64,000 nucleotides of DNA from an uncultured virus (IMG/VR IMGVR_UViG_3300033816_001502). Lineage: Duplodnaviria > Heunggongvirae > Uroviricota > Caudoviricetes. Location of the stretch: the IMG/VR virus record IMGVR_UViG_3300033816_001502; one strand, written 5' to 3'. This document shows, in pieces, positions 1-47,720 of this stretch. Made by a program: the position numbers and the translations under genes. Within the stretch, counting starts at the first letter, position 1, and the number at the start of each line of letters is the position of its first letter. The notes under the pieces were generated by a model. It ran no database searches and was not told where the DNA came from. It was given only the letters and a program-made list of their open reading frames with translations.

Positions 1-159
1 GTCCAACTGCCTTCGGGCCGGGTCCTCGACGTCGGCTCTTGGGAAGCCGCCATGGAACTCAACACCCTCGTCATGTTGCCGCAGAAGAAGATCGGAACAG
101 GCCGAGGTGGTCTGAAGGGTCGCCCGGCCTGGCTGAAAAAAGCGCTCGGCTACTACTGA
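1..159 (+). CDS. 3' end of a hypothetical protein (partial; probably the previous gene of the cassette array)
   Basis: Frame 1 is open from the window edge (VQLPSGRVLDVGSWEAAME...KKALGYY) to TGA at 157-159, immediately before the first repeat unit. Confidence 0.65.
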   Translation, partial: VQLPSGRVLDVGSWEAAMELNTLVMLPQKKIGTGRGGLKGRPAWLKKALGYY

Positions 160-198
160 GCGGTGCAAAGTCAACCTCGAACAGGATAAGGTAGAACC

Positions 199-420
199 AT
201 GGACAACATCAAGATCTTCGTGGTGCAGCAGGGTGCAATGTCCTATTCCAACGTCGACGAGGTCACCTACGTGTTCCTCAACGAGGCGGACGCTCGGGTC
301 AAGTACGCGTACCTCCTCGAGAACCGGGTGGTCGAGTGCGACTCTTACGACAGGACCTGGACTTCCCTCCACGCGGTGACTCCTGGCGACGAGGTGTCGC
401 AGGACAACAAGATCGCCTGA
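199..420 (+). CDS. hypothetical early protein (73 aa), cassette 1
   Basis: ATG follows the unit at 163; the stop abuts the next unit; GC3-rich codons. Confidence 0.8.
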   Translation: MDNIKIFVVQQGAMSYSNVDEVTYVFLNEADARVKYAYLLENRVVECDSYDRTWTSLHAVTPGDEVSQDNKIA

Positions 421-456
421 GTGCAAAGTCAACCTCGAACAGGATAAGGTAGAACC

Positions 457-774
457 ATGAACATCATCGAGTACGTCTCCGGCGGCCGTAGGTACCGGGC
501 CACCCTCGTCCCTGGGAAGCACATCATCGTGGAGTGCTTCCGGGATGATCAGTTCGTCTCCATGCGGAAGTTCGAGGTCGGCGATGTGGCCGAGTACGAC
601 TCCTTCAACCTCCGCTACACCGCGCCCATCGTCTCCATCGGCAAGTCCACGGTCACGTTCAATGTGTACGACAGCAAGAGGCGCCTCAAGGCTGAGAACT
701 TCGCCTGGCGCAATTGGAACTTCAACGCCGAGGAGATCGCCCGTCGGAACGCGGAGACGAGCCAGCACATCTGA
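457..774 (+). CDS. hypothetical early protein (105 aa), cassette 2
   Basis: ATG follows the unit at 421; GC3-rich codons. Confidence 0.8.
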   Translation: MNIIEYVSGGRRYRATLVPGKHIIVECFRDDQFVSMRKFEVGDVAEYDSFNLRYTAPIVSIGKSTVTFNVYDSKRRLKAENFAWRNWNFNAEEIARRNAETSQHI

Positions 775-815
775 ACCCGGTGCAAAGTTCGACCGTGATA
801 GGGTATACTAGGACC

Positions 816-1058
816 ATGAACAAGTTCGATGCTTTCGCGGCCAAGGCGAAGATCCTCGGGGAGATGCTGGAGACCGTCGGCAAGCTGCGGGACTCCGACC
901 TGGAGAAGCTCGTGGCGCCGATGGAAGGCATGACGGTGTGGTCCCACGACGATGTTGAGTCGCTGACTGACTCGATCAACCACCTCTTCGAGGAGCTGAT
1001 GATGCTCCAGGAAGAACTCCAGTCCTTCACCAGCCCGGCTGAGAGGTCGAGTGGCTGA
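816..1058 (+). CDS. hypothetical acidic helical protein (80 aa, MNKFDAFAAK...), cassette 3
   Basis: ATG at 816 follows the unit at 780; the ORF-track start at 714 runs through the promoter unit. Confidence 0.8.
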   Translation: MNKFDAFAAKAKILGEMLETVGKLRDSDLEKLVAPMEGMTVWSHDDVESLTDSINHLFEELMMLQEELQSFTSPAERSSG

Positions 1059-1061
1059 CCC

Positions 1062-1141
1062 AGGATGACCCAGGAGAGGCCCTGAGAATTCCCGGTGGGG
1101 TAACCTCCGCCTCGAACCTCCGGCCTCTCCTGGGTCATCCT
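1062..1141. repeat. perfect 20-bp inverted repeat with 40-nt loop
   Basis: AGGATGACCCAGGAGAGGCC (1062-1081) and GGCCTCTCCTGGGTCATCCT (1122-1141), intergenic. Confidence 0.9.
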
Positions 1142-1197
1142 CGAGGGAGTGCAAGGGGACGGTGCAAAGTTCCACCGGAGAGGGATAAGATGGACCC

Positions 1198-1728
1198 ATG
1201 ACAGTGATATCGTGGATCGCCCTCCTCGTCGCCATAGTGGCCCTTGCTGACTCGCAAGAGACTCGAGCACGCCTCAAGACACTCAGCCGCATCCCCGGTC
1301 CACGAGGGCTCCGAGGTCTACGTGGGGCGCCAGGACCGAGAGGAGAGGCCGGAGAGGTAGGCCCATGTGGCCCACCAGGACCCCAAGGTGAAACAGGTCC
1401 CCAAGGAACCCCAGGCATTCCTGGGCCAAAGGGAGACCCAGGAGACGGTGGGCCAATGGGACCCCAAGGCCCGACAGGGGAAGCAGGACCCAAGGGTGAG
1501 ACCGGTCTAACGGGTGACCAGGGTCCAAGCGGCCCAACAGGTCCCCAGGGTCCTCGAGGTGAGGCAGGACCGACCGGACCCCAAGGTGATATGGGACCAC
1601 CTGGCCCACGGGGAGAAGTGGGACCTAGAGGTCCCCAGGGCTTCAAGGGTGAGTCCAGCGGACCGGCCGAACGGGAACTCCTCGCCCATTGGGCCCACGA
1701 GGCACTGAAGCCCCGAGGCGAAGAATGA
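1198..1728 (+). CDS. membrane-anchored or secreted collagen-like protein, cassette 4
   Basis: Hydrophobic N-terminus ([15 protein letters not shown]) followed by 40 uninterrupted Gly-X-Y triplets. Confidence 0.85.
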
Positions 1729-1774
1729 CACGAGATCGGTGCAAAGTCACCCCTGAATAGGGTATACTGGGACC

Positions 1775-1972
1775 GTGAAGATCATCTACCTGTTGTTCAG
1801 CGACGTGACCTTCGGGACCCACGAGCACGGCTTCATCCCGCGCAAAGTCGTTCAGGATCCGGACGACGAGGACGCCCGCTACGAGCGCCACCTGAAGTCC
1901 AAGGGCATCAATGCCCGTGTGTACGACGGCAAGGTGAAGCTCCTTGAGCCCGGGGAAAAGTTCACGATCTGA
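1775..1972 (+). CDS. hypothetical early protein (65 aa), cassette 5
   Basis: GTG start exactly 36 nt after the unit at 1739. Confidence 0.75.
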   Translation: MKIIYLLFSDVTFGTHEHGFIPRKVVQDPDDEDARYERHLKSKGINARVYDGKVKLLEPGEKFTI

Positions 1973-2008
1973 GTGCAAAGTTCAACCTCGAAAGGATATA
2001 CTAGGATC

Positions 2009-2236
2009 ATGAACAACGCAATCCAACCCGGCGATCGAGTCATCCTCTCCCCCGTCAACGGCCTCGGGTGCAGTGCCTTCCTCGTCCTGGAGGTCGACCC
2101 CAACGTGCATCCGACCCACCGCCTCTACGTCGAAGGCCGGAATGGCCAGCGCTGGTGGGCCCGGATCGAGGGAGCGCGGATCCTCCCGGAGGAACCTGAG
2201 GGGAACTTCACCTCGAGCCGTCACGGCGATTGGTGA
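2009..2236 (+). CDS. hypothetical early protein (75 aa, MNNAIQPGDRV..., possibly SH3/KOW-like), cassette 6
   Basis: ATG follows the unit at 1973; the IQPGDRV pattern is typical of small beta-barrels. Confidence 0.75.
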   Translation: MNNAIQPGDRVILSPVNGLGCSAFLVLEVDPNVHPTHRLYVEGRNGQRWWARIEGARILPEEPEGNFTSSRHGDW

Positions 2237-2290
2237 GAAAAAGCCCTCCATCCGGTGCAAAGTCAACCCCGAACGAGGTAAGGTAGAACC

Positions 2291-2485
2291 ATGGACACCG
2301 CATTCGAAGTCTTCATCTCCGACACCATCCATGGCACCTCCGACCGTCGGGCATACAAGACCCGGGAGCGGGCCGTGGCTCGGTACGAGGAGCTGACGCG
2401 GAACCACAAACGCAATGGCCACTCCGCCGTGATCCTCCGCCAGGGCAAAGCACAGATCTTCCCGGCACCGATCTGCGGCCGCTGA
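2291..2485 (+). CDS. hypothetical early protein (64 aa), cassette 7
   Basis: ATG follows the unit at 2255. Confidence 0.75.
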   Translation: MDTAFEVFISDTIHGTSDRRAYKTRERAVARYEELTRNHKRNGHSAVILRQGKAQIFPAPICGR

Positions 2486-2521
2486 GTGCAAAGTTCACAG
2501 AGGAAAGGATATACTAGGACC

Positions 2522-2737
2522 ATGAAGAACATCATCACCCTCCTCAACGACGGCGAGACCTTCACCTCCGCGGAGGGCACCTCGGTCTGCTTCCTCTCCG
2601 ACGACGACGTGGATCTCCTCGCCTCGGGTGAACGCACCATCGACGAGCTGGTCGGTGCCGTGGGCCGGCGACGGTACGACCTCACCAACCCGGCCCACCT
2701 CCGCCTCCTCGCGGACCGGCTCGAAAAGAACCGCTGA
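2522..2737 (+). CDS. hypothetical early protein (71 aa, MKNIITLL...), cassette 8
   Basis: ATG follows the unit at 2486. Confidence 0.75.
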   Translation: MKNIITLLNDGETFTSAEGTSVCFLSDDDVDLLASGERTIDELVGAVGRRRYDLTNPAHLRLLADRLEKNR

Positions 2738-2776
2738 CCGGTGCAAAGTTCGACTCCGAAAGGATATACTAAGACC

Positions 2777-2959
2777 ATGAAGATCTCCCGCGCCCAAATG
2801 ACCTTCGACCGCAACAAGGACGCCGTGGGCATCCACCTCACCCTCGACGACGCGAAGCGGATCCGGGCAGCCTTGAGCGACCTGGACGGGGAAGACCTGG
2901 ACAACTACGGCGGGATCCTCGAACGCCTGCGGAAGGCCATTCCCCAACAGTGGGGCTGA
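2777..2959 (+). CDS. hypothetical early protein (60 aa, MKISRAQ...), cassette 9
   Basis: ATG follows the unit at 2741. Confidence 0.75.
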   Translation: MKISRAQMTFDRNKDAVGIHLTLDDAKRIRAALSDLDGEDLDNYGGILERLRKAIPQQWG

Positions 2960-3011
2960 AAAAGTTCACCCCTCGGTGCAAAGTTCGACCCCGAAAGGAT
3001 AAGGTAGAACC

Positions 3012-3197
3012 ATGGACGCCAAACACATCGCCCAGCTCATCGCCCAGGTGACCGACCTCCTCACCGCGGGGAAGATCGACCACGAGATGCAGGCCAACCT
3101 CACCGCCTCCCTCTGGGAGCTGGCGGCGCGGAAGGACCTCCGCGAGGAGGTGACGGAAATCCTTCGCCAGGACGCCCTCGAAGAGATGGGGGTGTGA
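3012..3197 (+). CDS. hypothetical early helical protein (61 aa), cassette 10
   Basis: ATG follows the unit at 2976. Confidence 0.75.
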   Translation: MDAKHIAQLIAQVTDLLTAGKIDHEMQANLTASLWELAARKDLREEVTEILRQDALEEMGV

Positions 3198-3265
3198 CGG
3201 GGACCCTCTGAAAAAAAAGCCTCGGGGCGGTGCAAAGTTCCACCGGGAAAAGGTATACTAAGACC

Positions 3266-3544
3266 ATGGAAAACATCTCCAAGGGTTTCAAAAGCTGGCA
3301 AGGCATCGCTCGGATTCCGTCGGCGGACAATGCCGTCCAAATCTGGGATCTCATGGCAGCCGACTGGACCTACCACAAGGACAACTTTCCGGACCGCGTC
3401 CCGGCCGGGTTCGAAAACTGCTCCTTTGAGGACCTCGAGTTCACCTCCCATCCCCGCAAGGACCGTCTCCTGGCTCGGCCGGCCGGCACCAAAATCCCCT
3501 TCCACATCTGGCGGGGAGCCCTCCAAGGCTTCAATACAAAGTGA
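3266..3544 (+). CDS. hypothetical early protein (92 aa, MENISKGF...), cassette 11
   Basis: ATG follows the unit at 3230. Confidence 0.75.
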   Translation: MENISKGFKSWQGIARIPSADNAVQIWDLMAADWTYHKDNFPDRVPAGFENCSFEDLEFTSHPRKDRLLARPAGTKIPFHIWRGALQGFNTK

Positions 3545-3550
3545 CCGGTT

Positions 3551-3580
3551 GGGGGAGGACCTTCGGGTCCTCCCCCTTTC
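3551..3580 (+). terminator. intrinsic terminator-like hairpin with UUCG loop
   Basis: GGGGGAGGACC-TTCG-GGTCCTCCCCC followed by TTTC (short U-tract). Confidence 0.75.
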
Positions 3581-3617
3581 CGTGCAAAGTTCCCACCAGA
3601 AAAGGTACACTGAGACC

Positions 3618-3980
3618 ATGAAGAACCCCGGCAAGGGCGAGTCCACCCTGGCCACCACCATCCAGTCACTCGGCCTCGAGGCACACATGGACAAGGCCAA
3701 CTTCCTCGAACTCCGTGAGGCGGCCTACACGATCGACCGCCTCCGTGCCGACCTCACCGACTGCTCTCGGCTCATGGCGAAACGTCTCACCTCCTTCGCG
3801 GATGACATCGCCGATGGCCGCACTCACATGTCTCCCCCCACGGGCAGCTCCCTCCTCGACGACATCACGGAGAAGACCGCGGTGCTCAATGAGAAGACCT
3901 CGGCCTTCCCCACCCTCCTCCGCCTCGTGCTCGGCCCCGACGGGTCGAAGGAGTTCTTCCGGATCCTCCGCGGAGTGTGA
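3618..3980 (+). CDS. hypothetical early protein (120 aa, MKNPGKGE...), cassette 12
   Basis: ATG follows the unit at 3582. Confidence 0.78.
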   Translation: MKNPGKGESTLATTIQSLGLEAHMDKANFLELREAAYTIDRLRADLTDCSRLMAKRLTSFADDIADGRTHMSPPTGSSLLDDITEKTAVLNEKTSAFPTLLRLVLGPDGSKEFFRILRGV

Positions 3981-4030
3981 AGCTCCACCTCGTCAGCAGC
4001 TGACACGCGGGAGGATGATATATATCCTCC

Positions 4031-4318
4031 ATGAAGCTAACGTCAGAACAACTACGCATCATCATCGACGACGTCATCGCCGAGGACCTCAAGAACGTCC
4101 GCGGCAAACACGAACACACCATCGCAGGCACCACCGCCCTTCGACGAATGCACGATGCGCCCGGCGTACTCGAGGCGCTATCACAGATCACGGACCCCAA
4201 AGAACTGGCGCAGGTCATCGAGGCCATCATCGACGCGGTGCCCATGGTCAAACGCGGCGACGTCCTGGAAACATTGGCGAAGGTGACGCGCCACGAACGA
4301 TCAACGCGGAGGTTCTGA
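4031..4318 (+). CDS. hypothetical protein with MKLT-x-LR-II N-terminal motif (putative head-packaged protein)
   Basis: MKLTSEQLRIIIDDVIAE; preceded by ATATATAT at 4018-4025. Confidence 0.7.
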   Translation: MKLTSEQLRIIIDDVIAEDLKNVRGKHEHTIAGTTALRRMHDAPGVLEALSQITDPKELAQVIEAIIDAVPMVKRGDVLETLAKVTRHERSTRRF

Positions 4319-4319
4319 C

Positions 4320-4418
4320 ATGAACCTCAACAGATCACACCTCATAGCCTTCCTCGAAGGCGCGGCCATCGGCATCATCATCGGCTGGGTGCTGTGGTGG
4401 GGCCTGCTGCAAGGTTGA
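4320..4418 (+). CDS. small single-pass membrane peptide (32 aa)
   Basis: MNLNRSHLIAFLEGAAIGIIIGWVLWWGLLQG; starts 1 nt after the previous stop; too short for the ORF track. Confidence 0.5.
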   Translation: MNLNRSHLIAFLEGAAIGIIIGWVLWWGLLQG

Positions 4419-4423
4419 ACTAC

Positions 4424-4610
4424 AAGGGGCCTGTGGAGAGAGCAAACGGGCCTAGGGGCCGCCCCCTTGCAAGGGCCCCTCAAAGGCCCCTCTTTAGGCC
4501 CCTAAAATGGGGCCCCGGCCCCGCCCCTAAAAGGGGCATTTTCTGTGGGGTTTTTGGGGCCGCCGGGGGGCGCTAAACCCGCGCGCAAATCTCGAGAAAT
4601 TTTGAGATTA
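4424..4610. other. non-coding G/C-tract element at the strand-skew switch; candidate replication origin or genome terminus/packaging site
   Basis: GGCCCC at 4474, 4485, 4497, 4511, 4517; hairpin GCCCCT-AAA-AGGGGC at 4523-4537; G-tracts at 4533, 4547, 4556, 4565; flanking genes change from C/A-rich to G/T-rich on the + strand. Confidence 0.5.
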
Positions 4611-4657
4611 AAGCGGTCCTTACCCACGCTCGTGGGGGCACATGCCTATTTATAAGC

Positions 4658-4840
4658 ATGTTAAAGCTCAGCCCCGGAGATCTGTGCGTCTACGAAGATG
4701 ATGGCGTGGCACCGAGAGAGATCTTGGATCGAGTCTTGGTGTTCCTGTATCATCTCGATGAACAGCCGGATGAGGGAATCTTCCTGTGCAACGACGGGAC
4801 GGTTGACTTCGAGTACATAGCCTTTCTAAAGAGGTTGTGA
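4658..4840 (+). CDS. hypothetical protein (60 aa)
   Basis: ORF MLKLSPGDLC... preceded by CTATTTAT. Confidence 0.55.
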   Translation: MLKLSPGDLCVYEDDGVAPREILDRVLVFLYHLDEQPDEGIFLCNDGTVDFEYIAFLKRL

Positions 4841-5119
4841 ATTGAGTTCCGGCTCCGCGGATTTTCTGGAGCTGTTGTGGTGCTCGAAAATTTCTCGGGA
4901 AATTTTTTGCGTCGAAATGACCGTTGTTCTTCGCGTCTGGAGCGACGTACCATGGTGGCTGAGGTGATGAGATGCGTATGAGGTATGGTAAGATGTTTGA
5001 GAGGATGTTCGTGGCTTCGGTGTTTCGGTTGATCATTGGAGCCTTGTTGGCCCCGTTGCGGCGGCTCTTTCGGTAGATGTCAGGTAGCGTGATATATATG
5101 TGTTGAGACAGGAGACGAC

Positions 5120-5497
5120 ATGAAGCTGACGCTGCCGAGATTGAGACAGATCATCAAAGAAGAACTTGAGACGCTGACGGGAGGAGATGGGCCTGGGGGA
5201 CAGTGGAGGCTCACGGCAGAGCCTGCGATGGACATTTTGGCGGATGAGGCGGCGTCAAATCCTGCTCTCGTGTACGACGCGAATCCTGATGTGGATGAGA
5301 CTCGTGAGGGCGTCCTTTCCAGGTTGAGTGATCCTGAAACGGGCGCGTTCGTGGAGCTCTCTCTAAGAGAGACCGACCAAGTTGTCGTGCGCTGGGCAGC
5401 CTCGAGGGCGCGCCCCAAGGTCAGCGTTTTGAAAGGCGATTCTCGTGACGACCGTACCATGATGGACGTGATGGACGACGCCTTTGGTGGCGTCTGA
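5120..5497 (+). CDS. hypothetical protein with MKLT-x-LR-II-EE N-terminal motif
   Basis: MKLTLPRLRQIIKEELE; SD AGGAG; ATATATAT at 5092-5099. Confidence 0.75.
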   Translation: MKLTLPRLRQIIKEELETLTGGDGPGGQWRLTAEPAMDILADEAASNPALVYDANPDVDETREGVLSRLSDPETGAFVELSLRETDQVVVRWAASRARPKVSVLKGDSRDDRTMMDVMDDAFGGV

Positions 5498-5585
5498 GAA
5501 TCTTTTTAAATTGTCGTGTGTGGAAAACCAATAAATTATCGAAGAATGATTCTTGGGCTTTGTGGTGCATAGAGGCACCGACTTG

Positions 5586-5614
5586 TTGTACAAGTGACCT
5601 TAAGGAATTAAGGT
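5586..5614 (+). promoter_or_regulatory. sigma70-type promoter of uvsE
   Basis: TTGTAC-N17-TAAGGT upstream of the ATG at 5628. Confidence 0.55.
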
Positions 5615-5627
5615 AGTAATCAAGCTT

Positions 5628-6563
5628 ATGGCATTAGGCGTTTGTTGCCATTGGATTCGGCGCGAGACCGCGCCGCGGAGTGGCAAGTTGCAAGTCATTA
5701 ACGAGTTGGATGAGAAGACGCTGCAGTTGGGTCGGTACGAACGAGGAGCGTATTCCGAAGATGCGATTCGTTCGTTGTACCTTCACAACGCTCGAATGTT
5801 ACGCGACGTGTTGCGGAAGGTGGCCGCGAGTGGCGTGCGGTTATTTCGCGTGTCAAGCGCCATGTTTCCGTTGAGCGATCGCGTGCCTCGGAGGTTGTGG
5901 GACAACGATGCCTTGCGGGGCGAGCTGGCGTTGTGTGGCGAGGTGGCTCGGAAGTGTGGTATTCGGTTGACGACGCATCCGGGTCAGTTCTGCGTGTTGT
6001 CGTCGGATTCTGACTCGGTGGTTGAGAAGGCGATCGTCGAGCTCGAGCATCACGCGTGGATGTTTGATTCGATGGGGATGCCGCGGAGTCCGTACGCTGC
6101 GATCAACGTGCATGGTGGTAAGGCGGATCGGCAGACGAGGTTGATCGACGCGATTCGGTCATTGCCGGAGGCTAGTCGATCGCGATTGACGCTGGAGAAT
6201 TGCGAGACGTGTTATTCGTTGGTGGATCTGTTGCCGGTGTCGATGGAGACGGGTGTGCCGATCGTGTGGGATTCGCATCATCATGTTTTCAACGACGGTG
6301 GATTGGACGGCGCAGAGGCTGCGGACGCAGCCGATGAGACGTGGCCTAAGGGTGTGAAACCCCTGCAACACATCAGCAATACCGAGCCAGGCATGGAAGG
6401 TGGATCTTTCACCGAGCGGCGCAAGCACAGCGACATGATCCATTATATTCCTGCGGTGCAGCTCGAGCGCCTGCGGCGCGATGCAGTGGATCTAGAGGTG
6501 GAGGCGAAGATGAAAAATCTCGCTGTCCTCGAGATGCCTAAGAAATTTGATGTGCCCCTTTAA
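5628..6563 (+). CDS. uvsE: UV DNA damage endonuclease (UvsE/UvdE family)
   Basis: Motifs LFRVSS..FP, HPGQF.VL.S, NVHGG, LTLEN, WDSHHH, RKHSD, EVEAKMK. Confidence 0.93.
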   Translation: MALGVCCHWIRRETAPRSGKLQVINELDEKTLQLGRYERGAYSEDAIRSLYLHNARMLRDVLRKVAASGVRLFRVSSAMFPLSDRVPRRLWDNDALRGELALCGEVARKCGIRLTTHPGQFCVLSSDSDSVVEKAIVELEHHAWMFDSMGMPRSPYAAINVHGGKADRQTRLIDAIRSLPEASRSRLTLENCETCYSLVDLLPVSMETGVPIVWDSHHHVFNDGGLDGAEAADAADETWPKGVKPLQHISNTEPGMEGGSFTERRKHSDMIHYIPAVQLERLRRDAVDLEVEAKMKNLAVLEMPKKFDVPL

Positions 6564-6646
6564 TCTTCCAGTGCAATGTTAATGTTGCATGGTATAAAAA
6601 GAATTTGTTCCCTGGATTTGATGAACGCACGAAAGTGAGAAAAAAA

Positions 6647-6928
6647 ATGGCAAAGAAAGCAAAGACAAACAAGATCAACGTTGATTCCCCGATTCCTTTT
6701 CCTCAGGTGCACACGTTCGATGAGTTGGCTGTCATCGATGACGATTCATTGAACAACATGCAGCGATCGCTGACGGATTCCATCTCTAGGGTGAATAGTC
6801 ATGGGTTGAATCCTTCAGCATGGGAGGTTGAGATGTGTTATGTACAGCGAGAGCTGCAGATTCGAACAGCTCGTCGTGAGGCCCACGCAAAGTATGTTTC
6901 GACTGTTTCCGTCACGGAGGAGGATTGA
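6647..6928 (+). CDS. hypothetical protein (93 aa, MAKKAKTNK...)
   Basis: ORF whose stop overlaps the sigma start codon. Confidence 0.7.
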   Translation: MAKKAKTNKINVDSPIPFPQVHTFDELAVIDDDSLNNMQRSLTDSISRVNSHGLNPSAWEVEMCYVQRELQIRTARREAHAKYVSTVSVTEED

Positions 6929-7758
6929 ATTTGAGTTCTCAAGGCACAATTTCTCGAGAAAACTCTCGAGAGTCAGCCTTCGGCGGCGATTCAATGAATC
7001 GCTACTTTTCTTCTCTAAAGAACCATCAACAGCTTTCGCATGAGCAGATGATGGAGCTCTTTAAGGTCCTCGAAGCAGGGGGTCTTGACGCGCCTCTCGC
7101 GAAGAAAAAGTTGATCGAGACCAATCTTCGTTTGGTCGTTTATGTGGCGAAGCAGTACAAGAACCACAGCATGCCTCTCGAAGACATCATTCAAGAAGGC
7201 AACATGGGGTTGATGAGAGCGATTGAGAAGTTTGATTGGAAGAAGGGATTTAGGTTCTCAACCTACGCGACCTGGTGGGTTAGGCAAGCGATTGGTCAAC
7301 ACATCCTGAAGCAGAAGCGGGTCATCAGAATGTCCGCGCATGCCGTGAATACTCAAAAGAAGTTGTTGACAGCCGCCGAAGAATACAGGAACGCGATGGG
7401 ATGTGAGCCAACTCCTGAAGAGTTGAAGGAGTTGACAGGCACTTCAGATGCAATCTTCAACGCGATGAGGATCAGTGGTCGATCGATTATTTCGCTTGAT
7501 CAACCTCTGTCCTCAGATCCAGATGCTGACACGATTGAAGATAAGATTGAGGCGGATCCTACGTCAGATCCACTCGAGATTTTTTCTTCCAAGCAAATGT
7601 TAGAGTTGGCTCAACGAGTCATCGTGGGCCTTTCTCCAAAGGAAGCTGCGATTTTGAGGTTACGGTTCGGGCTGGTCGACGACGTGTTGAGCGATGAATC
7701 TTATAAGATCACTCAAGAGCAAGTTGAGAAGATCTCAATGGGAGAAGGTCTCACGTGA
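6925..7758 (+). CDS. sigma70-family RNA polymerase sigma factor lacking the region 4.2 HTH
   Basis: Region 1.2 (DSMNRYF..L), region 2 (NLRLVVYVAKQY, DIIQEGNMGLMRAIEKFD..KGFRFSTYATWWVRQAI), region 3 (EPTPEEL, ISLDQPL) and region 4.1 (LSPKEAAILRLRFGL), then a divergent tail. Confidence 0.92.
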   Translation: MNLSSQGTISRENSRESAFGGDSMNRYFSSLKNHQQLSHEQMMELFKVLEAGGLDAPLAKKKLIETNLRLVVYVAKQYKNHSMPLEDIIQEGNMGLMRAIEKFDWKKGFRFSTYATWWVRQAIGQHILKQKRVIRMSAHAVNTQKKLLTAAEEYRNAMGCEPTPEELKELTGTSDAIFNAMRISGRSIISLDQPLSSDPDADTIEDKIEADPTSDPLEIFSSKQMLELAQRVIVGLSPKEAAILRLRFGLVDDVLSDESYKITQEQVEKISMGEGLT

Positions 7759-8015
7759 CCAGCGAAAGTCTGATTCTTGTCCTATGTTCGATCAATCTGG
7801 TCACTTCTTTTGTTAGTTTGTACATGTTGATCCGTGACAAGAAATCTGATGAAATTGAGGAGGAAGAAGACGTAAAAGAAGATCTGCTGGTCGAACGGAA
7901 CTTAAATTCAAGATTGCGATACTTGCAGACGACCAGATTTGGTCCATCAATGGTACCTCATTCTAGGGGCGAGACATTTCATAGGAAAAATGACAATGAC
8001 AATGAAAAAAGGTAG
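7755..8015 (+). CDS. hypothetical protein with N-terminal transmembrane helix
   Basis: LILVLCSINLVTSFVSLYMLI followed by an acidic stretch; GTGA overlap with the sigma stop. Confidence 0.65.
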   Translation: MTSESLILVLCSINLVTSFVSLYMLIRDKKSDEIEEEEDVKEDLLVERNLNSRLRYLQTTRFGPSMVPHSRGETFHRKNDNDNEKR

Positions 8016-8304
8016 CAAATTTGTTGGTGGGTACGCAACAATTGACGATAATGGTGTTAATTATCGTGATATTGCGGATACAATGACAGAGCTTGGGTAT
8101 AAAATGAACCATTCCTCAGCGAGGAATTACGTACTTCGAGTCATGCGCAAGTTTGTTGATGCAATAGCAGATCAGCATAACATTCACGTCGATTCTGAAT
8201 CAGCTGAGATGATTTCGAAATCTCCGTTGTTCCAAAGTGGAATCTCTGACTTGTTACAAGATCTAGAGTCTCATAGAAAATTGGTGAAAAATGAAAGCAA
8301 CTAA
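7990..8304 (+). CDS. putative HTH DNA-binding protein (sigma region-4-like)
   Basis: VNYRDIADTMTELGYKMNHSSARNYVLRVMRK resembles an HTH; SD AGGA upstream. Confidence 0.55.
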   Translation: MTMTMKKGSKFVGGYATIDDNGVNYRDIADTMTELGYKMNHSSARNYVLRVMRKFVDAIADQHNIHVDSESAEMISKSPLFQSGISDLLQDLESHRKLVKNESN

Positions 8305-8719
8305 GTATCAAAAGAAGTCTTTGATCAGACTAGAAGATCTTCTTCGTCGCAGAAAGACCACGTTAAAAAAGTTTTTGATTGAGAGAGGTATCACCACCTA
8401 CAGCGTTCTTGAAGAGACTTGCAATAGATTAGGTGTTGTGACTCCTGGTTTCGAAGCATTCAATTTATGCATTCCTTCGTACGTTTCTGATCCAACGGCA
8501 GGCGTCGTTGTTGTTCCTCCGTTAGATGTCGTTGCAGAGGCGACTGGTGAGAAAGAAAATTTGAACGAGGTTTTTGCAGCTATTCCTCCAACTACCGCGT
8601 ATGAAGACGTTCTGTCTCAAGAAAATCTTTCTCTCGTCGAAGATGAAGATGGAGATGCATCCAAGCTAGACCCAACATCAGAAACGAAGAATTACCAGAA
8701 GAAGAAGTTAAAAAAGTAG
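8291..8719 (+). CDS. hypothetical protein (142 aa)
   Basis: Overlapping operonic ORF. Confidence 0.7.
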   Translation: MKATKYQKKSLIRLEDLLRRRKTTLKKFLIERGITTYSVLEETCNRLGVVTPGFEAFNLCIPSYVSDPTAGVVVVPPLDVVAEATGEKENLNEVFAAIPPTTAYEDVLSQENLSLVEDEDGDASKLDPTSETKNYQKKKLKK

Positions 8720-8731
8720 GTGAAAACAAAG

Positions 8732-8986
8732 ATGAGACGAGTCGTATACGAAGTAGAAAAGATCAATAGTAATAAAGTGAGCGAAAAGCAGAATGATTGG
8801 TCGTTCGAAAAGCAAAAAATTGCTTTTAAGTTGATTAACAATGCTTCAATTTTGACCGACGCAGTACAGACGTGTAGGAGCGTTCTAGAAAAGAATCCTG
8901 ATTCTGAACTGAAAGTTGCGATCGCTAAGATCGACGGAGTGATCGAAGAGCTAAAGATAGATTTCAGAAAAAACTACAAGTTTTGA
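8732..8986 (+). CDS. hypothetical protein
   Basis: Operonic ORF; SD-like AGGTG before the ATG at 8732. Confidence 0.6.
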   Translation: MRRVVYEVEKINSNKVSEKQNDWSFEKQKIAFKLINNASILTDAVQTCRSVLEKNPDSELKVAIAKIDGVIEELKIDFRKNYKF

Positions 8987-9067
8987 GAAACTCGAATGAA
9001 TCTAGGTTAGATTCTTGTCAAGAAAACTGTGAAATCTGTGAGTAGGGTTGGTTAATATAACCTCATA

Positions 9068-11041: not shown

Positions 11042-11368
11042 TCAAGAACCTGTTTTAATCTGTTTTATTAACCCAATGATAGACTGGATATCTCCTGGAT
11101 CAGATATTATGATCTTTAAGAAAGCCGTTCCTAACGCTTGTCTTTCCATCTTGTCGATAAGTTTTTCGTCGCTTATAGCAGCAGCTGCATCTTTAGATTT
11201 TGCCACGTCTTTTATTGCCGAAGCTAGTTTTGTTGCATTCGCTTCGGGGGCTAACTTTTGAAGTTTGGTGCGTAATTGATCTATAGGTCCTTCGACTTCT
11301 CCTGCTTCGTGAATGTTCTTTATTTCTTCTAGTATGATCTTGCGTAGCTGACGTTCTGTTAATTTCAT
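11042..11368 (-). CDS. hypothetical protein with MKLT-x-LR-II-EE N-terminal motif
   Basis: MKLTERQLRKIILEEIKNIHE; SD AAGGA. Confidence 0.75.
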   Translation of the reverse strand: MKLTERQLRKIILEEIKNIHEAGEVEGPIDQLRTKLQKLAPEANATKLASAIKDVAKSKDAAAAISDEKLIDKMERQALGTAFLKIIISDPGDIQSIIGLIKQIKTGS

Positions 11369-23518: not shown

Positions 23519-25162
23519 TCAACGATACAACCAAGATAAATCTGCAATTAGTGGATCAGAATTAGCGTTGACATGTTTAACGTCGGTTGGTTCTCGCAAT
23601 TTATACACATTTTGAGGATTAATTCCAGTTGAAGCTCTTAATGAAGGACTGATGTATGGACTAGCTGAATTAGGGCCATTAGGAATTTCATTTAATTCTC
23701 TTCTAGAGATACCCGTCGCTTTTAGCATAGCATATGCCATAGCCATAGCAGATTCATTAGCACCACTTCCGTCTTCAACTAGCCACGCACCAATAGCAAG
23801 ACTCATGATTAAATCATCATGACTATCTTTAGAAGCCATAGGCTTATTACCATTCCAAATAAAAGCCTGAAGTTGATCGTACAGGCGTTGAGAATGGCAC
23901 CTTAAAACCTTATTTCTTATAAGTTCTTCAAGCTTTGTTAAAACTTGAACTCTCGTTTTTTGATTCGTTGGGAATCCTGGTAGTTCTGAAGGATCTACTG
24001 AAGAGTAAGAAAACGGATCACCTTTATTGTTGTGGTAATACAATCGTGGATATCCGGAGTCTCTAAGCTTAACATTCACGAAATATCCAAATGTGTTATT
24101 CTCTGGACAGATGAAAGCATTATTATATTTTTTACCCCATTCAGCCAATAACTCTGCAAACTTTTCTGGAGGTATTTTACCCATGTATTCTGCTACAATC
24201 TCACAAGCAGATTGATCTATTACATGAAACGCAGAATAATCTGATGCATCGCCTCTAGCAACATCTGCAGAAATTACATATGATTTTTCTGGTGAAGGGT
24301 GATCCCATATCCAAACGTTTCTATCAAATCCTGATTTTTCAATAGGAGGAGATATTTTGGATCTTAAATCTTCTAGATCTTCTGACTGTAAGAACGTATC
24401 TCCAGACGTGATAAAATCGCAAAGATATTCTTGACTAACTTTTCTTTTTGGTAGATTTCTAGTTTCTTTTGTAAACCAAACTTCATCGTGCTCTGGGTGA
24501 ACAGTCCACGGAAGTCTTATCGGATTAAATTCGTTAGCCCCAGCTTCTGCTTCAACCCATAATCTGTAATATAAACCACCTACTCCATTAGGAGAAGAAA
24601 TTAGAATAGCGTTACCACCTGTCGTAAGCGTGGGATAGAGACCTGTCCATATCGTGTCAAAATCTCTAATAAATGCACACTCGTCTACAATTAGCAAAGA
24701 TAGAGCTTCAGAACGGCCTGCATCTTCCGACGTAGGTACAGCCTTTATCTGAGATCCATTGCTAAAAGATATTTGTTGCTTTGATGGCTCAAACTTGGGC
24801 ATCAAAAGCCATTTTGGCAAAGATTGTAGTAAAACAGCTACTTTCTTAATAAAGTTCTGAGCAGTAGCAAGTTTTGTTGCAATAACTAATACGTTTTTAT
24901 CTTTGTAAAAAATAGCTAACCAAGTGGCATATGCAGCTGAAACCGTTGATAAACCCAGCTGTCTGGATTTTAGCACAATGTTAAATCTATGCTTTTGAAA
25001 GTTTTCTAAGCATTCATCTTGAAAAGGATACAACTCAAATGGAATCGTGCCTTTTAATGGATGCTGGATTCTTGCGTAGTGCTTTATAAAATACGACGGA
25101 TCTTTACCACAACGAATTATCTCGTTGACTTGTTGCTGTTTTGTTAACGTTTTTTCAGACAT
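23519..25162 (-). CDS. terminase large subunit (T4 gp17-like)
   Basis: LYPFQ, LKSRQLGLST (Walker A), LLIVDECAF (Walker B), ISSPNG, ISADVARG..DYSA, HDDLIMS. Confidence 0.95.
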   Translation of the reverse strand: MSEKTLTKQQQVNEIIRCGKDPSYFIKHYARIQHPLKGTIPFELYPFQDECLENFQKHRFNIVLKSRQLGLSTVSAAYATWLAIFYKDKNVLVIATKLATAQNFIKKVAVLLQSLPKWLLMPKFEPSKQQISFSNGSQIKAVPTSEDAGRSEALSLLIVDECAFIRDFDTIWTGLYPTLTTGGNAILISSPNGVGGLYYRLWVEAEAGANEFNPIRLPWTVHPEHDEVWFTKETRNLPKRKVSQEYLCDFITSGDTFLQSEDLEDLRSKISPPIEKSGFDRNVWIWDHPSPEKSYVISADVARGDASDYSAFHVIDQSACEIVAEYMGKIPPEKFAELLAEWGKKYNNAFICPENNTFGYFVNVKLRDSGYPRLYYHNNKGDPFSYSSVDPSELPGFPTNQKTRVQVLTKLEELIRNKVLRCHSQRLYDQLQAFIWNGNKPMASKDSHDDLIMSLAIGAWLVEDGSGANESAMAMAYAMLKATGISRRELNEIPNGPNSASPYISPSLRASTGINPQNVYKLREPTDVKHVNANSDPLIADLSWLYR

Positions 25163-25542
25163 TATGCTAGTTCAAATATACACTTTCTTCTGTACAAAGC
25201 AGTTCTTTTTGGATTGTGAACATTAAGACCAATTATTTCAACAGATTCGCCTGAAGAAACTTCTTTAACTTTTAAAGACTGTCCAGACAGATCTTTATAT
25301 TTGCTTTTAACGTTATCAACTATCGATTTCACATTTTTTACAGCTTGCTCAGACTCAAATAATTTTACTCTAAGCATTTCTCGCTCTGAAGCAAAGTTAA
25401 TCACAGTCTGATAAACCAAGTGAAGTTGATTTTGACCAGCAAGCGACATTTTTGCTGAAAAACCTGAAGTCAAAGGCATGGAAGATCTACCCCATGATGT
25501 ATCGATTGCTTCTCCAAGAGAACTAAGATCAATATCAGCCAT
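25162..25542 (-). CDS. hypothetical protein upstream of terminase
   Basis: Its stop overlaps the terminase start; ATAGTTAT upstream. Confidence 0.7.
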   Translation of the reverse strand: MADIDLSSLGEAIDTSWGRSSMPLTSGFSAKMSLAGQNQLHLVYQTVINFASEREMLRVKLFESEQAVKNVKSIVDNVKSKYKDLSGQSLKVKEVSSGESVEIIGLNVHNPKRTALYRRKCIFELA

Positions 25543-47379: not shown

Positions 47380-47441
47380 GTTGATTTCAATATCTTCTTT
47401 GAACAATGTACCTTTTTTGCCTAAAGTATAAACAAATTCTA

Positions 47442-47720
47442 ATGACAAAAAGCAAAAGTTTACCAATACTAAAACAATCAGCTACTTGCTTTGAGACGCA
47501 TGCTAAATACAACGTCAACTGCAATAAAGACAGCTGCAAAAATTACATGAATGATAAAAATAATCAAAACTGTGTAATCGTTGCAGCTCAAAAAGGACCA
47601 TATACCCTACAAAATATAGGAAAAATATATGGATTGACAAGAATGAGAATTTGTCAAATAGAAAAAAACATCATTCAAAAGTTAAAGTTTCAGCTGTTGT
47701 TTGATAATGATTTCTTTTGA
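47442..47720 (+). CDS. small Cys-rich protein with a sigma70 region-4 HTH
   Basis: YTLQNIGKIYGLTRMRICQIEK matches the region 4.2 consensus TLEEIG..FGVTRERIRQIE; four N-terminal Cys; promoter TTGAAC-N17-TAAAGT at 47399-47427. Confidence 0.8.
   Translation: MTKSKSLPILKQSATCFETHAKYNVNCNKDSCKNYMNDKNNQNCVIVAAQKGPYTLQNIGKIYGLTRMRICQIEKNIIQKLKFQLLFDNDFF

What the first reader, a model, noticed from the sequence alone, without database searches (positions are those of the whole stretch)
4424..4910. Strand-skew inversion centred on a G/C-tract element with G-quadruplex potential on both strands
Seen: + strand genes to the left (e.g. 4031-4318) are visibly C/A-rich and + strand genes to the right (e.g. 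uvsE) are G/T-rich, so gene orientation does not explain the change. At the switch, GGCCCC repeats (4474, 4485, 4497, 4511, 4517) alternate with short A/T tracts. They are followed by the hairpin GCCCCT-AAA-AGGGGC (4523-4537) and four G-runs (4533, 4547, 4556, 4565). The left half could form a G4 on the minus strand and the right half on the plus strand. A CTCG-R-(G)-AAATTT motif recurs at 4591, 4883 and 4894. Inference: a bidirectional replication origin, or the joined ends or packaging site of the genome.
Basis: partly seen in the sequence, partly recalled or inferred. Interest (0 to 1): 0.7.

Follow-up and report, generated by a model that had tools for sequence, protein, structure and literature searches.

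The report
Phased G/C-tract element, phage gene-array boundary
A one-of-a-kind, conserved stretch of alternating G/C and A/T tracts sits where a lake phage's long array of tiny self-promoted genes ends and a differently composed operon begins; it most likely stops and restarts transcription, and a role as a replication start site is possible but unproven.

Summary
The window lies in a 278-kb T4-like phage genome from lake metagenomes. The skew flip is real: it is the second-largest keto-skew step in the genome. The G/C-tract cluster occurs only here. Independent assemblies bridge it, so it is not a chimeric junction.

The skew argument for an origin is weak. The C-rich left arm reflects a codon habit (C3>G3) of GC-rich cassette genes, seen in both gene orientations. 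Genome-wide skew follows gene orientation, and the global extrema lie elsewhere. Only the G/T-rich right arm remains anomalous.

The element closes an array of 25 plus-strand promoter cassettes that has no terminator-like site before it. It holds GC hairpins followed by a T tract, kept in all variants folded. Conserved palindromic motifs and a promoter-like block for the next operon follow.

It also shows an 11.75-12-nt G/C versus A/T phasing, by far the strongest in the genome and present in all five variants analysed. The G4 pattern on both strands occurs in only 2 of 6 variants.

Best reading: terminator/insulator plus regulated promoter (0.45). Rival: a T4 oriE/oriF-like origin (0.25). Genome ends are unsupported.

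The parts
3583..3620 (+). Last copy of the repeated cassette promoter (TGCAAAGT-N17-TAcACT-N6-ATG). It closes a run of 25 plus-strand copies.
   Evidence: Alignment of 11 copies in the window. 31 composite matches in the genome; 30 of them lie at 51.3-75.6 kb, 5 on the - strand and 25 on the + strand.
4031..4318 (+). P0001, 95 aa, a member of the MKLTxxQLRxII paralog family. It has its own GATATATAT motif upstream (4017-4025).
   Evidence: 83-96% aa identity in relatives. Family members listed.
4320..4418 (+). 32-aa hydrophobic ORF (MNLNRSHLIAFLEGAAIGIIIGWVLWWGLLQG), the last gene before the element.
   Evidence: Translation and tblastn: 67-97% aa identity in L001-L005.
4424..4580 (.). Single-copy, non-coding G/C-tract element with alternating G/C and A/T tracts.
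   Evidence: W/S period 11.75 nt with power 5.72, against 2.74 for the next best locus in the genome. Conserved in 6 sequence variants. No frame is conserved: indels of 12 and 10 columns.
4462..4527 (-). C-run half: seven runs of >=4 C on the + strand. It is the only minus-strand G4-type pattern in the genome.
   Evidence: Not kept in L004, L005, L040 or L041.
4497..4514 (+). Hairpin GGCCCC-TAAAAT-GGGGCC. The block GGCCCCTAAAAT is invariant in all variants.
   Evidence: folds.
4523..4546 (+). Terminator-like hairpin GCCCCT-AAA-AGGGGC followed by ATTTTCTGT. The tail block GCATTTTCTGTGGG is invariant in all variants.
   Evidence: Terminator scan. It is the first + strand terminator-like site after window position 1. 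A GC hairpin plus U-rich tail is kept in all 5 variants folded.
4533..4570 (+). G-run half: four runs of >=4 G. It is the only plus-strand pattern of that kind in the genome.
   Evidence: G4Hunter 1.96 for a 25-nt window, third highest in the genome. Weakened in relatives.
4587..4604 (.). Palindrome-like motif AAATCTCGAGAAATTTTG. The block CTCGAGAAATTTTG is invariant in all variants.
4627..4657 (+). Conserved promoter-like block: CGCTCGTGGGGGCACAT, then CCTATTTA 5 nt before the start codon.
   Evidence: Alignment. A 15/15 inverted match lies at genome 49,232-49,246. The promoter role is inferred.
4658..4840 (+). P0003, 60 aa, of unknown function; first gene of the right-hand block.
   Evidence: 58-60% aa identity with 34 invariant columns in L004 and L005. 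No Pfam or PHROG hit.
4883..4909 (.). Near-palindrome AAAATTTCTCGGGAAATTTT with a weak hairpin and a T run, conserved in relatives.
   Evidence: (repeats D8 and I9).
4978..5076 (+). 32-aa hydrophobic ORF (MRYGKMFERMFVASVFRLIIGALLAPLRRLFR), rich in G/T codons.
   Evidence: Read. The differences from L005 look synonymous by eye; not computed.
5120..5497 (+). P0002, 125 aa, a second MKLT-family paralog, with GATATATAT upstream at 5091.
   Evidence: (repeats D6 and D9).
5628..6563 (+). UV damage endonuclease UvdE, with G3/T3-rich codons.
   Evidence: Pfam PF03851, 6e-49. G3 0.47 against C3 0.22. Third-position GC skew is +0.24 to +0.40 in the 3 fetched relatives that carry the element, and -0.61 to +0.02 in 12 others.

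Best explanation
The element is a transcription-unit boundary. It closes a hyperplastic array of small genes, each of which has its own promoter and none of which has a terminator. It also forms the upstream region of the next, separately regulated operon.

Proposed mechanism (steps 1-3 are inferred from sequence, not shown):
1. Read-through RNA from the 25 plus-strand cassette promoters meets GC-rich hairpins followed by a T tract (4497-4546) and terminates there.
2. The ~120-bp run of G/C tracts and A/T tracts phased at about 12 nt gives a stiff or curved upstream region, or a protein-binding one.
3. Next come a palindromic operator-like motif (4587-4604) and a promoter-like block (4627-4657). 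These start the operon P0003, a small membrane ORF, P0002, uvdE and sigma. A second copy of the palindrome lies at 4883-4909.

The skew inversion is then the meeting of two gene classes. On the left are GC-rich cassette genes with C-ending codons. On the right is an operon whose coding strand is G/T-rich. That bias could come from transcription-linked deamination of the non-template strand; this last point is inference.
For: - Array. 31 composite promoter motifs in the genome; 30 lie at 51.3-75.6 kb, 5 on the - strand and 25 on the + strand, the last at window 3583.
- Terminator position. No + strand terminator-like site is listed in 1-4522; the first is 4523-4537 with the tail ATTTTCTGT.
- Conserved hairpin. 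A GC hairpin plus U-rich tail is present in all 5 variants folded, although the stem sequences differ. The tail GCATTTTCTGTGGG is invariant.
- Conserved motifs. CTCGAGAAATTTTG and GGCACAT..CCTATTTA are invariant while the flanking genes have diverged to 58-83% aa identity.
- Operator-like motif. Matches with <=2 mismatches lie at 4587, 4890 and 6949 (near the sigma gene start) and at one further site, 40910.
- Left-arm skew is a codon habit. C3>G3 holds on the coding strand in 10 of 11 minus-strand and 18 of 20 plus-strand cassette-region genes, by my heuristic gene calls. GC3 against third-position GC skew gives r = -0.48 over 243 genes.
- Mosaic boundary. The element sits where variable and conserved DNA meet: L003 matches the window only from 4347 rightwards, and L040 switches lineage inside the element.
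- Known precedent. PeSL-type promoter/terminator cassettes in hyperplastic regions are described for T4-type phages (abstracts of PMC2839356 and PMC4122927).
Against: - A plain terminator needs neither 12-nt phasing over ~120 bp nor uniqueness. Other terminator-like sites in the window are simple single hairpins.
- The folds are not more stable than shuffles: z = -1.6 and -1.9 for the whole element, -1.1 to +0.3 for the hairpin segments.
- No covariation was found: the covariation term is +0.59 with 6 sequences.
- The T tract is interrupted (ATTTTCTGT).
- No -35-like hexamer was found for the proposed promoter.
- At <=3 mismatches the palindrome is not enriched in the window: 13 matches against 10.0 expected.
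- The G3/T3-rich right arm is seen only in the 3 fetched relatives that carry the element. This reading explains it only by an untested mutational argument.
Confidence: 0.45

Rival explanations
1. A phage replication origin of the T4 kind. Either a protein binds the ~12-nt phased repeats, as proposed for the oriE iterons. Or transcription into the G-run half leaves a persistent RNA-DNA hybrid that primes leading-strand synthesis, as at oriF/oriG. In the second case, repeated single-strandedness of the + strand would make the right arm G/T-rich.
For: - The W/S period of 11.75-12 nt is the strongest in the genome (5.72 against 2.74). It is present in 5 of 5 variants analysed, with 0 of 300 shuffles reaching it.
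- One indel between lineages is exactly 12 columns long.
- The cumulative keto skew has a local minimum at 4532, after a drop of about 800 in a range of about 3,040.
- The right arm is G3/T3-rich against the genome's trend: orientation against keto skew gives r = -0.45. It is so only in the 3 fetched relatives that carry the element.
[quoted passage not shown] It says that oriE, oriF and oriG lie at shifts in compositional bias. It says that oriF and oriG consist of a promoter plus a downstream unwinding element that forms R-loops.
Against: - The left arm's skew is a codon habit seen in both orientations.
- No global skew extremum lies here.
- Tandem Repeats Finder sees only 2.1 copies of an 11-nt unit.
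- The element is GC-rich, whereas the T4 unwinding element is A+T-rich.
- It is not at a transcriptional divergence; that lies at about genome 59.8 kb.
- The adjacent small proteins have no Pfam or PHROG family.
- There is no cluster of DnaA-box-like words: none in 4000-5200, and 6 in the window against 8 expected.
Confidence: 0.25
2. A wrapping or landing site for another DNA-binding protein. Candidates are a small-terminase ring starting headful packaging, a nucleoid-type or insulator protein, or a recombination hotspot that sets the edge of the variable region.
For: - It is unique in the genome and has about ten phased units over ~120-160 bp.
- The repeated words GGCCCCT/AGGGGC occur in both orientations.
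- Two mosaic breakpoints lie at or inside it: L003 from 4347, and L040 inside the element.
- That packaging sites of some pac phages carry phased repeats and bent DNA is recalled knowledge, not from any call.
Against: - It lies about 19 kb from the terminase genes at 23519-25542.
- T4 is described as circularly permuted with no defined ends.
- No binding protein is identified.
- The ~11.75-nt period is longer than the helical repeat of B-DNA, so sites would not share one face (inference).
Confidence: 0.12
3. No dedicated function. A slippage-grown GC-rich repeat has persisted at the seam between two blocks of different ancestry, and the skew flip merely reflects their different histories.
For: - The genome is a compositional mosaic, with GC from 30% to 62%.
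- The 12-column indel fits repeat slippage.
- No Rfam family matches.
- There is no covariation.
Against: - Several blocks of 12-14 nt are invariant across variants whose neighbouring proteins are only 58-71% identical.
- The phasing and the skew flip are kept in all lineages, even where the left flank differs.
Confidence: 0.12
4. The physical ends of the genome joined in assembly, or a chimeric assembly junction.
For: - Sharp changes in GC and skew occur at one point.
- The contigs behind L001 and L002 end 670-1,300 nt to the left, inside the repeat-rich cassette array.
Against: - Contigs from independent runs bridge it: X3, 37,856 nt, covering 3604-7500; X5, 1,440 nt, covering 3392-4831.
- 16 runs hold at least half of the sampled words.
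- Three further lineages carry it internally.
- The contig breaks fall at the repeated promoters, not at the element.
Confidence: 0.02

Closest known systems
PeSL cassettes and hyperplastic regions of T4-type phages (Arbiol et al. 2010, PMC2839356; Comeau et al. 2014, PMC4122927; abstracts and outlines read)
   Same: - Arrays of small non-essential genes separated by a short conserved promoter-bearing repeat.
- Indels and swaps at the repeats: joints that skip 197-852 nt between repeats in metagenome contigs, and different cassette sets in L003.
   Different: - The repeats here show no stem-loop terminator of their own.
- The -10-like hexamer lies 6 nt from the ATG, so the mRNAs would be leaderless (inference).
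- The array is 55-62% GC in a genome that falls to 30%.
- A single large phased element closes the array.
Intrinsic (Rho-independent) terminators
   Same: A GC-rich stem-loop followed by a T-rich tract, downstream of genes on the same strand and kept in relatives.
   Different: - Several overlapping hairpins.
- An interrupted T tract.
- Embedded in about ten phased G/C-A/T units.
- The sequence class is unique in the genome.
[quoted passage not shown]
   Same: - About 12-nt spacing.
- Conservation at a syntenic place in related phages.
- Location at a shift in compositional bias.
- Dependence on nearby early-type promoters is conceivable.
   Different: - Here the periodicity is mainly one of G/C against A/T tracts, with only 2-3 good direct copies.
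- No repEA/repEB-like genes were recognised.
- The site is not at a transcriptional divergence.
- The function of the T4 iterons is itself unproven, according to the review.
T4 oriF/oriG R-loop origins, and the G-run element CSB II of human mitochondrial DNA (PMC3016281, passages; PMC3488243, only the start of the abstract seen in the listing)
   Same: - A promoter-fed region where G runs on the non-template strand follow a termination point.
- G/T enrichment of the non-template strand downstream.
   Different: - T4 uses an A+T-rich unwinding element, not G runs.
- The G-run pattern is not conserved in 4 of 6 variants.
- No RNA-DNA hybrid data exist.
Skew-defined bacterial replication origins
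   Same: A local V-shaped minimum of cumulative keto skew lies exactly at the element.
   Different: - It is not the global extremum.
- Genome-wide skews follow gene orientation: r = 0.74 for purine skew and -0.45 for keto skew.
- There is no DnaA-box cluster.

Membership tests
Intrinsic terminator | GC-rich stem-loop directly followed by a U/T-rich tract on the transcribed strand | tested here: met
   Site 4523-4537 has 6 pairs (5 G-C) and the tail ATTTTCTGTG. The T tract is interrupted.
Intrinsic terminator | Placed downstream of co-oriented genes, with the structure kept in relatives | tested here: met
   It follows the + strand ORF ending at 4418. A GC hairpin plus U-rich tail is present in 5 of 5 variants folded, with differing stems. 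No covariation statistics are possible with 6 sequences.
Intrinsic terminator | Transcripts end there | not testable with these tools
   Only assembled contigs of RNA runs were served.
Replication origin defined by strand skew | Global extremum of cumulative GC or keto skew | tested here: not met
   The global minima are at genome 3,058 (GC) and 49,114 (keto). Here there is only a local minimum, at window 4382 (GC) and 4532 (keto).
Replication origin defined by strand skew | Skew on both arms independent of gene orientation and codon habit | tested here: not met
   Left arm: C3>G3 on the coding strand in both orientations. Right arm: anomalous, so this half is met.
T4 oriE-type origin | Cluster of evenly spaced ~12-nt repeats conserved in related phages | tested here: inconclusive
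   The W/S period of 11.75-12 nt is the top of the genome and is found in 5 of 5 variants. Tandem Repeats Finder finds only 2.1 copies of an 11-nt unit.
T4 oriE-type origin | Origin activity; associated repE-like genes | not testable with these tools
   There is no replication assay here. The neighbouring small proteins have no Pfam or PHROG hit, which is a weak test.
T4 oriF/oriG-type origin | Promoter followed by an A+T-rich unwinding element that holds a persistent R-loop | tested here: inconclusive
   Promoter-like blocks are present. The element itself is GC-rich. R-loops are not testable.
G-quadruplex-forming element | Four G runs with short loops, conserved if functional | tested here: inconclusive
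   Present on both strands in the window and L003. Present on the + strand only in L004 and L040. Absent in L005 and L041. No match with loops <=7 in the window. Folding was not tested.
Genome terminus or pac/cos site | Reads or molecules that begin or end at a fixed place | not testable with these tools
   Only contigs were served, and they bridge the site. The contig has no terminal direct repeat.
PeSL cassette array (left flank) | Repeated sigma-70-like early promoter together with a stem-loop terminator between small ORFs | tested here: not met
   The promoter-like repeat is present 30 times. No + strand terminator-like stem-loop is listed in 1-4522. So the array works like a PeSL array but is not a strict member.
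Known RNA family (Rfam 15) | Match at or above the gathering score | tested here: not met
   The two best matches in 3500-5700 score 20.8 and 18.6 bits against thresholds of 45. Neither lies in the element.

The most novel reading that the evidence does not exclude
The element is a new kind of phage replication origin that doubles as a transcription stop. RNA from the cassette array terminates at the GC hairpins. Its G-rich 3' part stays hybridised over the G-run half, or a protein array assembles on the ~12-nt phased tracts. Rightward leading-strand synthesis is primed from there.

Repeated single-strandedness of the + strand would then have driven C-to-T and A-to-G changes. That would explain why uvdE and its neighbours are G3/T3-rich only in the fetched relatives that carry the element.

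A second skew minimum of the same sign lies at genome 49.1 kb. It carries inverted copies of the CTCGAGA and CGCTCGTGGGGGCA motifs and would be the leftward partner. The 27-kb GC-rich cassette region would then sit between two outward-firing origins.
Probability: 0.2. Interest if true: 0.75.

Novelty: new variant of a known kind. Interest (0 to 1): 0.45.

Why it matters
- It warns that a sharp skew inversion with unchanged gene orientation need not mark an origin. Here one arm is a codon habit of a gene class.
- It also yields a well-defined, conserved, single-copy cis element with the strongest sequence periodicity in a 278-kb phage genome. The element sits exactly where a fast-evolving array of self-promoted genes meets a conserved operon encoding a sigma factor and DNA-repair enzymes.
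- If it is an insulator, it shows how such arrays are kept from disturbing timed gene expression.
- If it is an origin, it would be the first sequence-defined one outside the T4/coliphage circle, and one linked to a measurable local mutation bias.
- Either way it is a compact, testable fragment of about 240 bp.

Tried and rejected
- Rfam scan of 3500-5700 at E<=1: two sub-threshold chance matches, none in the element.
- Single-sequence RNA folds of both strands: z = -1.6 and -1.9, not distinctive for this composition.
- Consensus fold of 6 variants: no covariation support; the covariation term is +0.59.
- Polarised substitution spectrum right of the element (window and L003 against L004/L005). 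It gave C>T 13 against G>A 14, and T>C 14 against A>G 14, from 75 changes. The L004/L005 pair gave mixed asymmetries from 428 changes. This is inconclusive for a strand-specific mutation bias.
- RNA-library contigs. In run X17 one contig covers 4223-4507 and nothing covers 4508-5095. Contigs cannot show transcript ends and only one study is involved, so I draw nothing from it.
- Terminal direct repeat of the 278-kb contig: none found, so completeness and permutation remain open.
- DNA search of 3000-7000 against 50,697 phage records: no match. The major capsid protein has only 32-52% identical relatives there.
- T4 late-promoter word TATAAATA. There are 7 in the genome; one lies on the minus strand at 4647-4654, but it is not kept in L004 or L005. 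Dropped.
- DNA and translated comparison of 4300-7000 with the other skew step at 45-50 kb: only short motif matches, no homologous block.
- PHROGs and Pfam for the small flanking proteins, and an Atlas look-up of P0001: no family.
- Earlier findings of this scan, by place and by sequence: nothing on record.
- Literature searches for this phage group or element returned nothing specific in their listings.
- The metagenome scan with the P0003 alignment added only two new variants, L040 and L041.
Full report
CONTEXT. The window is bases 71,978-135,977 of a single 278,435-bp contig. Pfam finds a T4-type major capsid protein, portal and large terminase. It also finds UvdE, a sigma-70-type factor, an ATP-dependent DNA ligase and a PIN-PhoH protein. 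This is therefore a large T4-like phage. No DNA relative exists among 50,697 phage records, and capsid relatives there are only 32-52% identical. The stretch is held by at least 16 lake-water metagenome runs from many studies. GC content varies from about 62% at the start of the window to about 30% further on. The whole genome has a GC-rich region at 46-78 kb.

CHECK OF THE OBSERVATION.
- The words GGCCCC/GGGGCC occur 36 times in the genome, and 10 of these lie in 4399-4561.
- The only places in the genome with four runs of >=4 G and loops of <=12 nt are 4462-4527 on the minus strand and 4533-4570 on the plus strand. Shuffles of the GC-rich region give 0.04 on average.
- GC skew turns from about -0.2 to +0.3/+0.39, and AT skew from about +0.3 to -0.3, within 600 nt.
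- Measured as a keto-skew step, this is the second-largest discontinuity in the genome at three window sizes.
- Genes on both sides are on the + strand.
- The junction is not an assembly artefact. A 37.9-kb contig of run X3 and a 1.44-kb contig of run X5 bridge it. It is internal in three further lineages.

WHAT LIES TO THE LEFT.
- The left flank is an array of cassettes of about 250 bp. Each is a small ORF preceded by the conserved TGCAAAGT-N17-TAtACT-N6-ATG.
- The composite motif occurs 31 times in the genome, 30 of them at 51.3-75.6 kb. Five are on the minus strand up to 59,764 and 25 on the plus strand from 59,969 to window 3583.
- Relatives carry different cassette sets. Metagenome contigs show joints that skip 197-852 nt between the repeats.
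- This behaves like the promoter/terminator (PeSL) cassettes of hyperplastic regions in T4-type phages (abstracts of PMC2839356 and PMC4122927). The difference is that no + strand terminator-like site is listed anywhere in 1-4522.
- The -10-like hexamer sits 6 nt before the ATG, which suggests leaderless mRNAs (inference).

WHY THE LEFT ARM IS C-RICH.
- By my own heuristic gene calls, cassette-region genes prefer C-ending over G-ending codons on their own coding strand. This holds in 10 of 11 minus-strand genes and 18 of 20 plus-strand genes.
- Across 243 called genes, GC3 and third-position GC skew correlate at r = -0.48. GC-rich genes elsewhere in the genome show the same habit.
- Genome-wide, purine skew follows gene orientation (r = 0.74), and keto skew does so too (r = -0.45).
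- The left half of the inversion is therefore a property of a gene class, not of replication.
- The cumulative GC-skew minimum here is a dip of about 190 in a range of about 3,700. The global extrema lie elsewhere.

WHAT REMAINS ODD ON THE RIGHT.
- From P0002 to about 9 kb, the + strand genes are G3- and T3-rich. For uvdE, G3 is 0.47 against C3 0.22. This runs against the genome's own trend.
- uvdE has third-position GC skew of +0.24 to +0.40 in the three fetched relatives that carry the element. In 12 other relatives it is -0.61 to +0.02. For two of those 12, L006 and L007, too little upstream DNA is held to know whether the element is present.
- The flip is kept in every lineage with the element, even where the left flank differs.
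- An attempt to see the responsible mutation bias in polarised substitutions was inconclusive.

ANATOMY OF THE ELEMENT.
- Six sequence variants are known: window/L001/L002, L003, L004, L005/L008, L040 and L041. They share invariant blocks: AAGGGCCCCT, GGCCCCTAAAAT, GCATTTTCTGTGGG, GCGCTAA, CTCGAGAAATTTTG and GGCACAT..CCTATTTA. Meanwhile the neighbouring proteins have diverged to 58-83% identity.
- In all five variants folded, a strong GC hairpin precedes the U-rich block. The stems differ between lineages.
- The element is non-coding: indels of 12 and 10 columns break every frame.
- It matches no Rfam family. It shows no covariation.
- The most striking property is an alternation of G/C and A/T tracts with a period of 11.75-12 nt. 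It was found in all five variants analysed, and none of 300 shuffles reached it.
- In a genome-wide scan this is by far the strongest such signal: 5.72 against 2.74 for the next locus. It is the top window in every fetched locus that has the element. The 17 loci without it reach at most 2.61.
- By contrast, the G4-type pattern on both strands exists in only 2 of the 6 variants. G-quadruplex formation is therefore unlikely to be the conserved function.

DOWNSTREAM PART OF THE FINDING.
- The CTCG-R-G-AAATTT motifs are halves of a near-palindrome (ATTTCTCGAGAAAT-like). Matches with <=2 mismatches lie at 4587, 4890 and 6949, near the start of the sigma gene, and at one further site, 40910. At <=3 mismatches the word is not enriched.
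- The first two copies lie about 50 nt upstream of -10-like words: CCTATTTA before P0003 and GTACCAT before a conserved 32-aa ORF at 4978-5076. I read them as operator-like sites of two promoters. This is inference.

INTERPRETATION. The best-supported reading (0.45) is a transcription boundary. It would be the one terminator of a terminator-less promoter array, followed by a phased, probably curved, upstream region. Operator-bearing promoters of a conserved operon that includes a sigma factor come next.

This reading does not explain why so elaborate and unique a phasing is needed. It explains the right-arm bias only by an untested appeal to transcription-linked deamination. That idea is recalled from the general literature on strand asymmetry, not from a call.

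The main rival (0.25) is a T4-type origin. The T4 review (PMC3016281; passages from its sections 5-7 read) makes four relevant points:
- oriE contains evenly spaced 12-nt repeats conserved in related phages;
- three origins lie at shifts of compositional bias;
- oriF and oriG are promoters followed by an unwinding element that holds an R-loop;
- T4 has no defined ends.

The same text cautions that the iterons have not been tied to origin activity. The two readings are not exclusive, since T4 origins are built on promoters. Other protein-landing roles (0.12), a functionless repeat at a mosaic seam (0.12) and genome ends or chimera (0.02) follow.

A WIDER PATTERN. I could not resolve the following.
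- The largest keto-skew step of the genome lies at 49.1 kb, at the other edge of the GC-rich cassette region, and has the same sign.
- To its left (44-49 kb), third positions are A/C-rich on the + strand in genes of both orientations.
- Next to it lie CTCGAGA and a 15/15 copy of ACGCTCGTGGGGGCA, inverted relative to window 4591-4641.
- The cassette region is therefore bracketed by two minima of origin-like sign. This keeps the origin reading alive and is the basis of the novel case.

VERDICT. The inference of an origin cannot be decided with sequence alone, and its skew argument is half explained away. Genome ends and chimera are not supported. The element is a new variant of known boundary elements, and its ~12-nt phasing is unexplained.

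Noticed in passing
whole genome; window 1-9000 against 19000-64000: GC content ranges from about 30% to 62% within one phage genome. A 46-78 kb region is GC-rich (50-62%), and several smaller GC-rich islands lie at about 180-204 kb and 258-274 kb. This is unusual for a phage and is confirmed as real DNA by independent contigs at the one junction examined.
   Followed up: partly
genome 51.3-75.6 kb (window up to 3620): There are 30 copies of the promoter-like repeat TGCAAAGT-N17-TAnnnT-N6-ATG. They diverge from about 59.8 kb, with 5 on the minus strand and 25 on the plus strand. The spacing implies leaderless mRNAs.
   Followed up: partly
genome 33.2, 39.5, 45.0-48.9, 71.8, 76.0, 77.1, 83.3, 218.4 and 224.1 kb (window 4031-4318, 5120-5497 and 11042-11368 on the minus strand): An expanded family of at least 14 proteins of 59-245 aa shares the N-terminus MK(L/I)(T/R)xxQLRxII(R/K)EE. 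Members lie on both flanks of the cassette region. The family has no Pfam, PHROG or Atlas assignment.
   Followed up: partly
genome 48,920-49,250 (outside the window, 22.9 kb to the left): This is the largest keto-skew step of the genome. It has a roughly 150-nt C/A-rich non-coding tract, two CTCGTGGGG motifs and a CTCGAGA on the minus strand. To its left, the third-position bias is independent of gene orientation.
   Followed up: partly
L040:2225-2503: This is a recombinant variant of the element. It is window-like up to about the equivalent of 4458 and L004/L005-like beyond, so lineages have exchanged DNA inside the element.
   Followed up: yes
window 2500-3600: Metagenome contigs show forms that skip 197, 235, 446 or 852 nt between copies of the cassette repeat. 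Many contigs also end at the repeats. Both point to cassette gain and loss in natural populations.
   Followed up: no
window 6949-6970: Two overlapping CTCGAGA-type palindromes (ATTTCTCGAGAAAACTCTCGAGAG) lie at the annotated start of the sigma-factor ORF. They are possibly a regulatory site, and the true start codon may lie downstream.
   Followed up: no
window 1198-1728: An ORF within the cassette array has collagen triple-helix repeats (Pfam PF01391, 5.5e-20).
   Followed up: no
window 45988-47466 (minus strand): A fusion of a PIN domain and a PhoH-like ATPase in one 492-aa protein.
   Followed up: no
window 4017-4029 and 5091-5099: GATATATAT precedes both MKLT-family genes that flank the element. 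Only 4 matches exist in the genome, counting both strands. At 4011-4029 it sits in the loop and arm of the hairpin GGAGGAT...ATCCTCC, which abuts the start codon.
   Followed up: no
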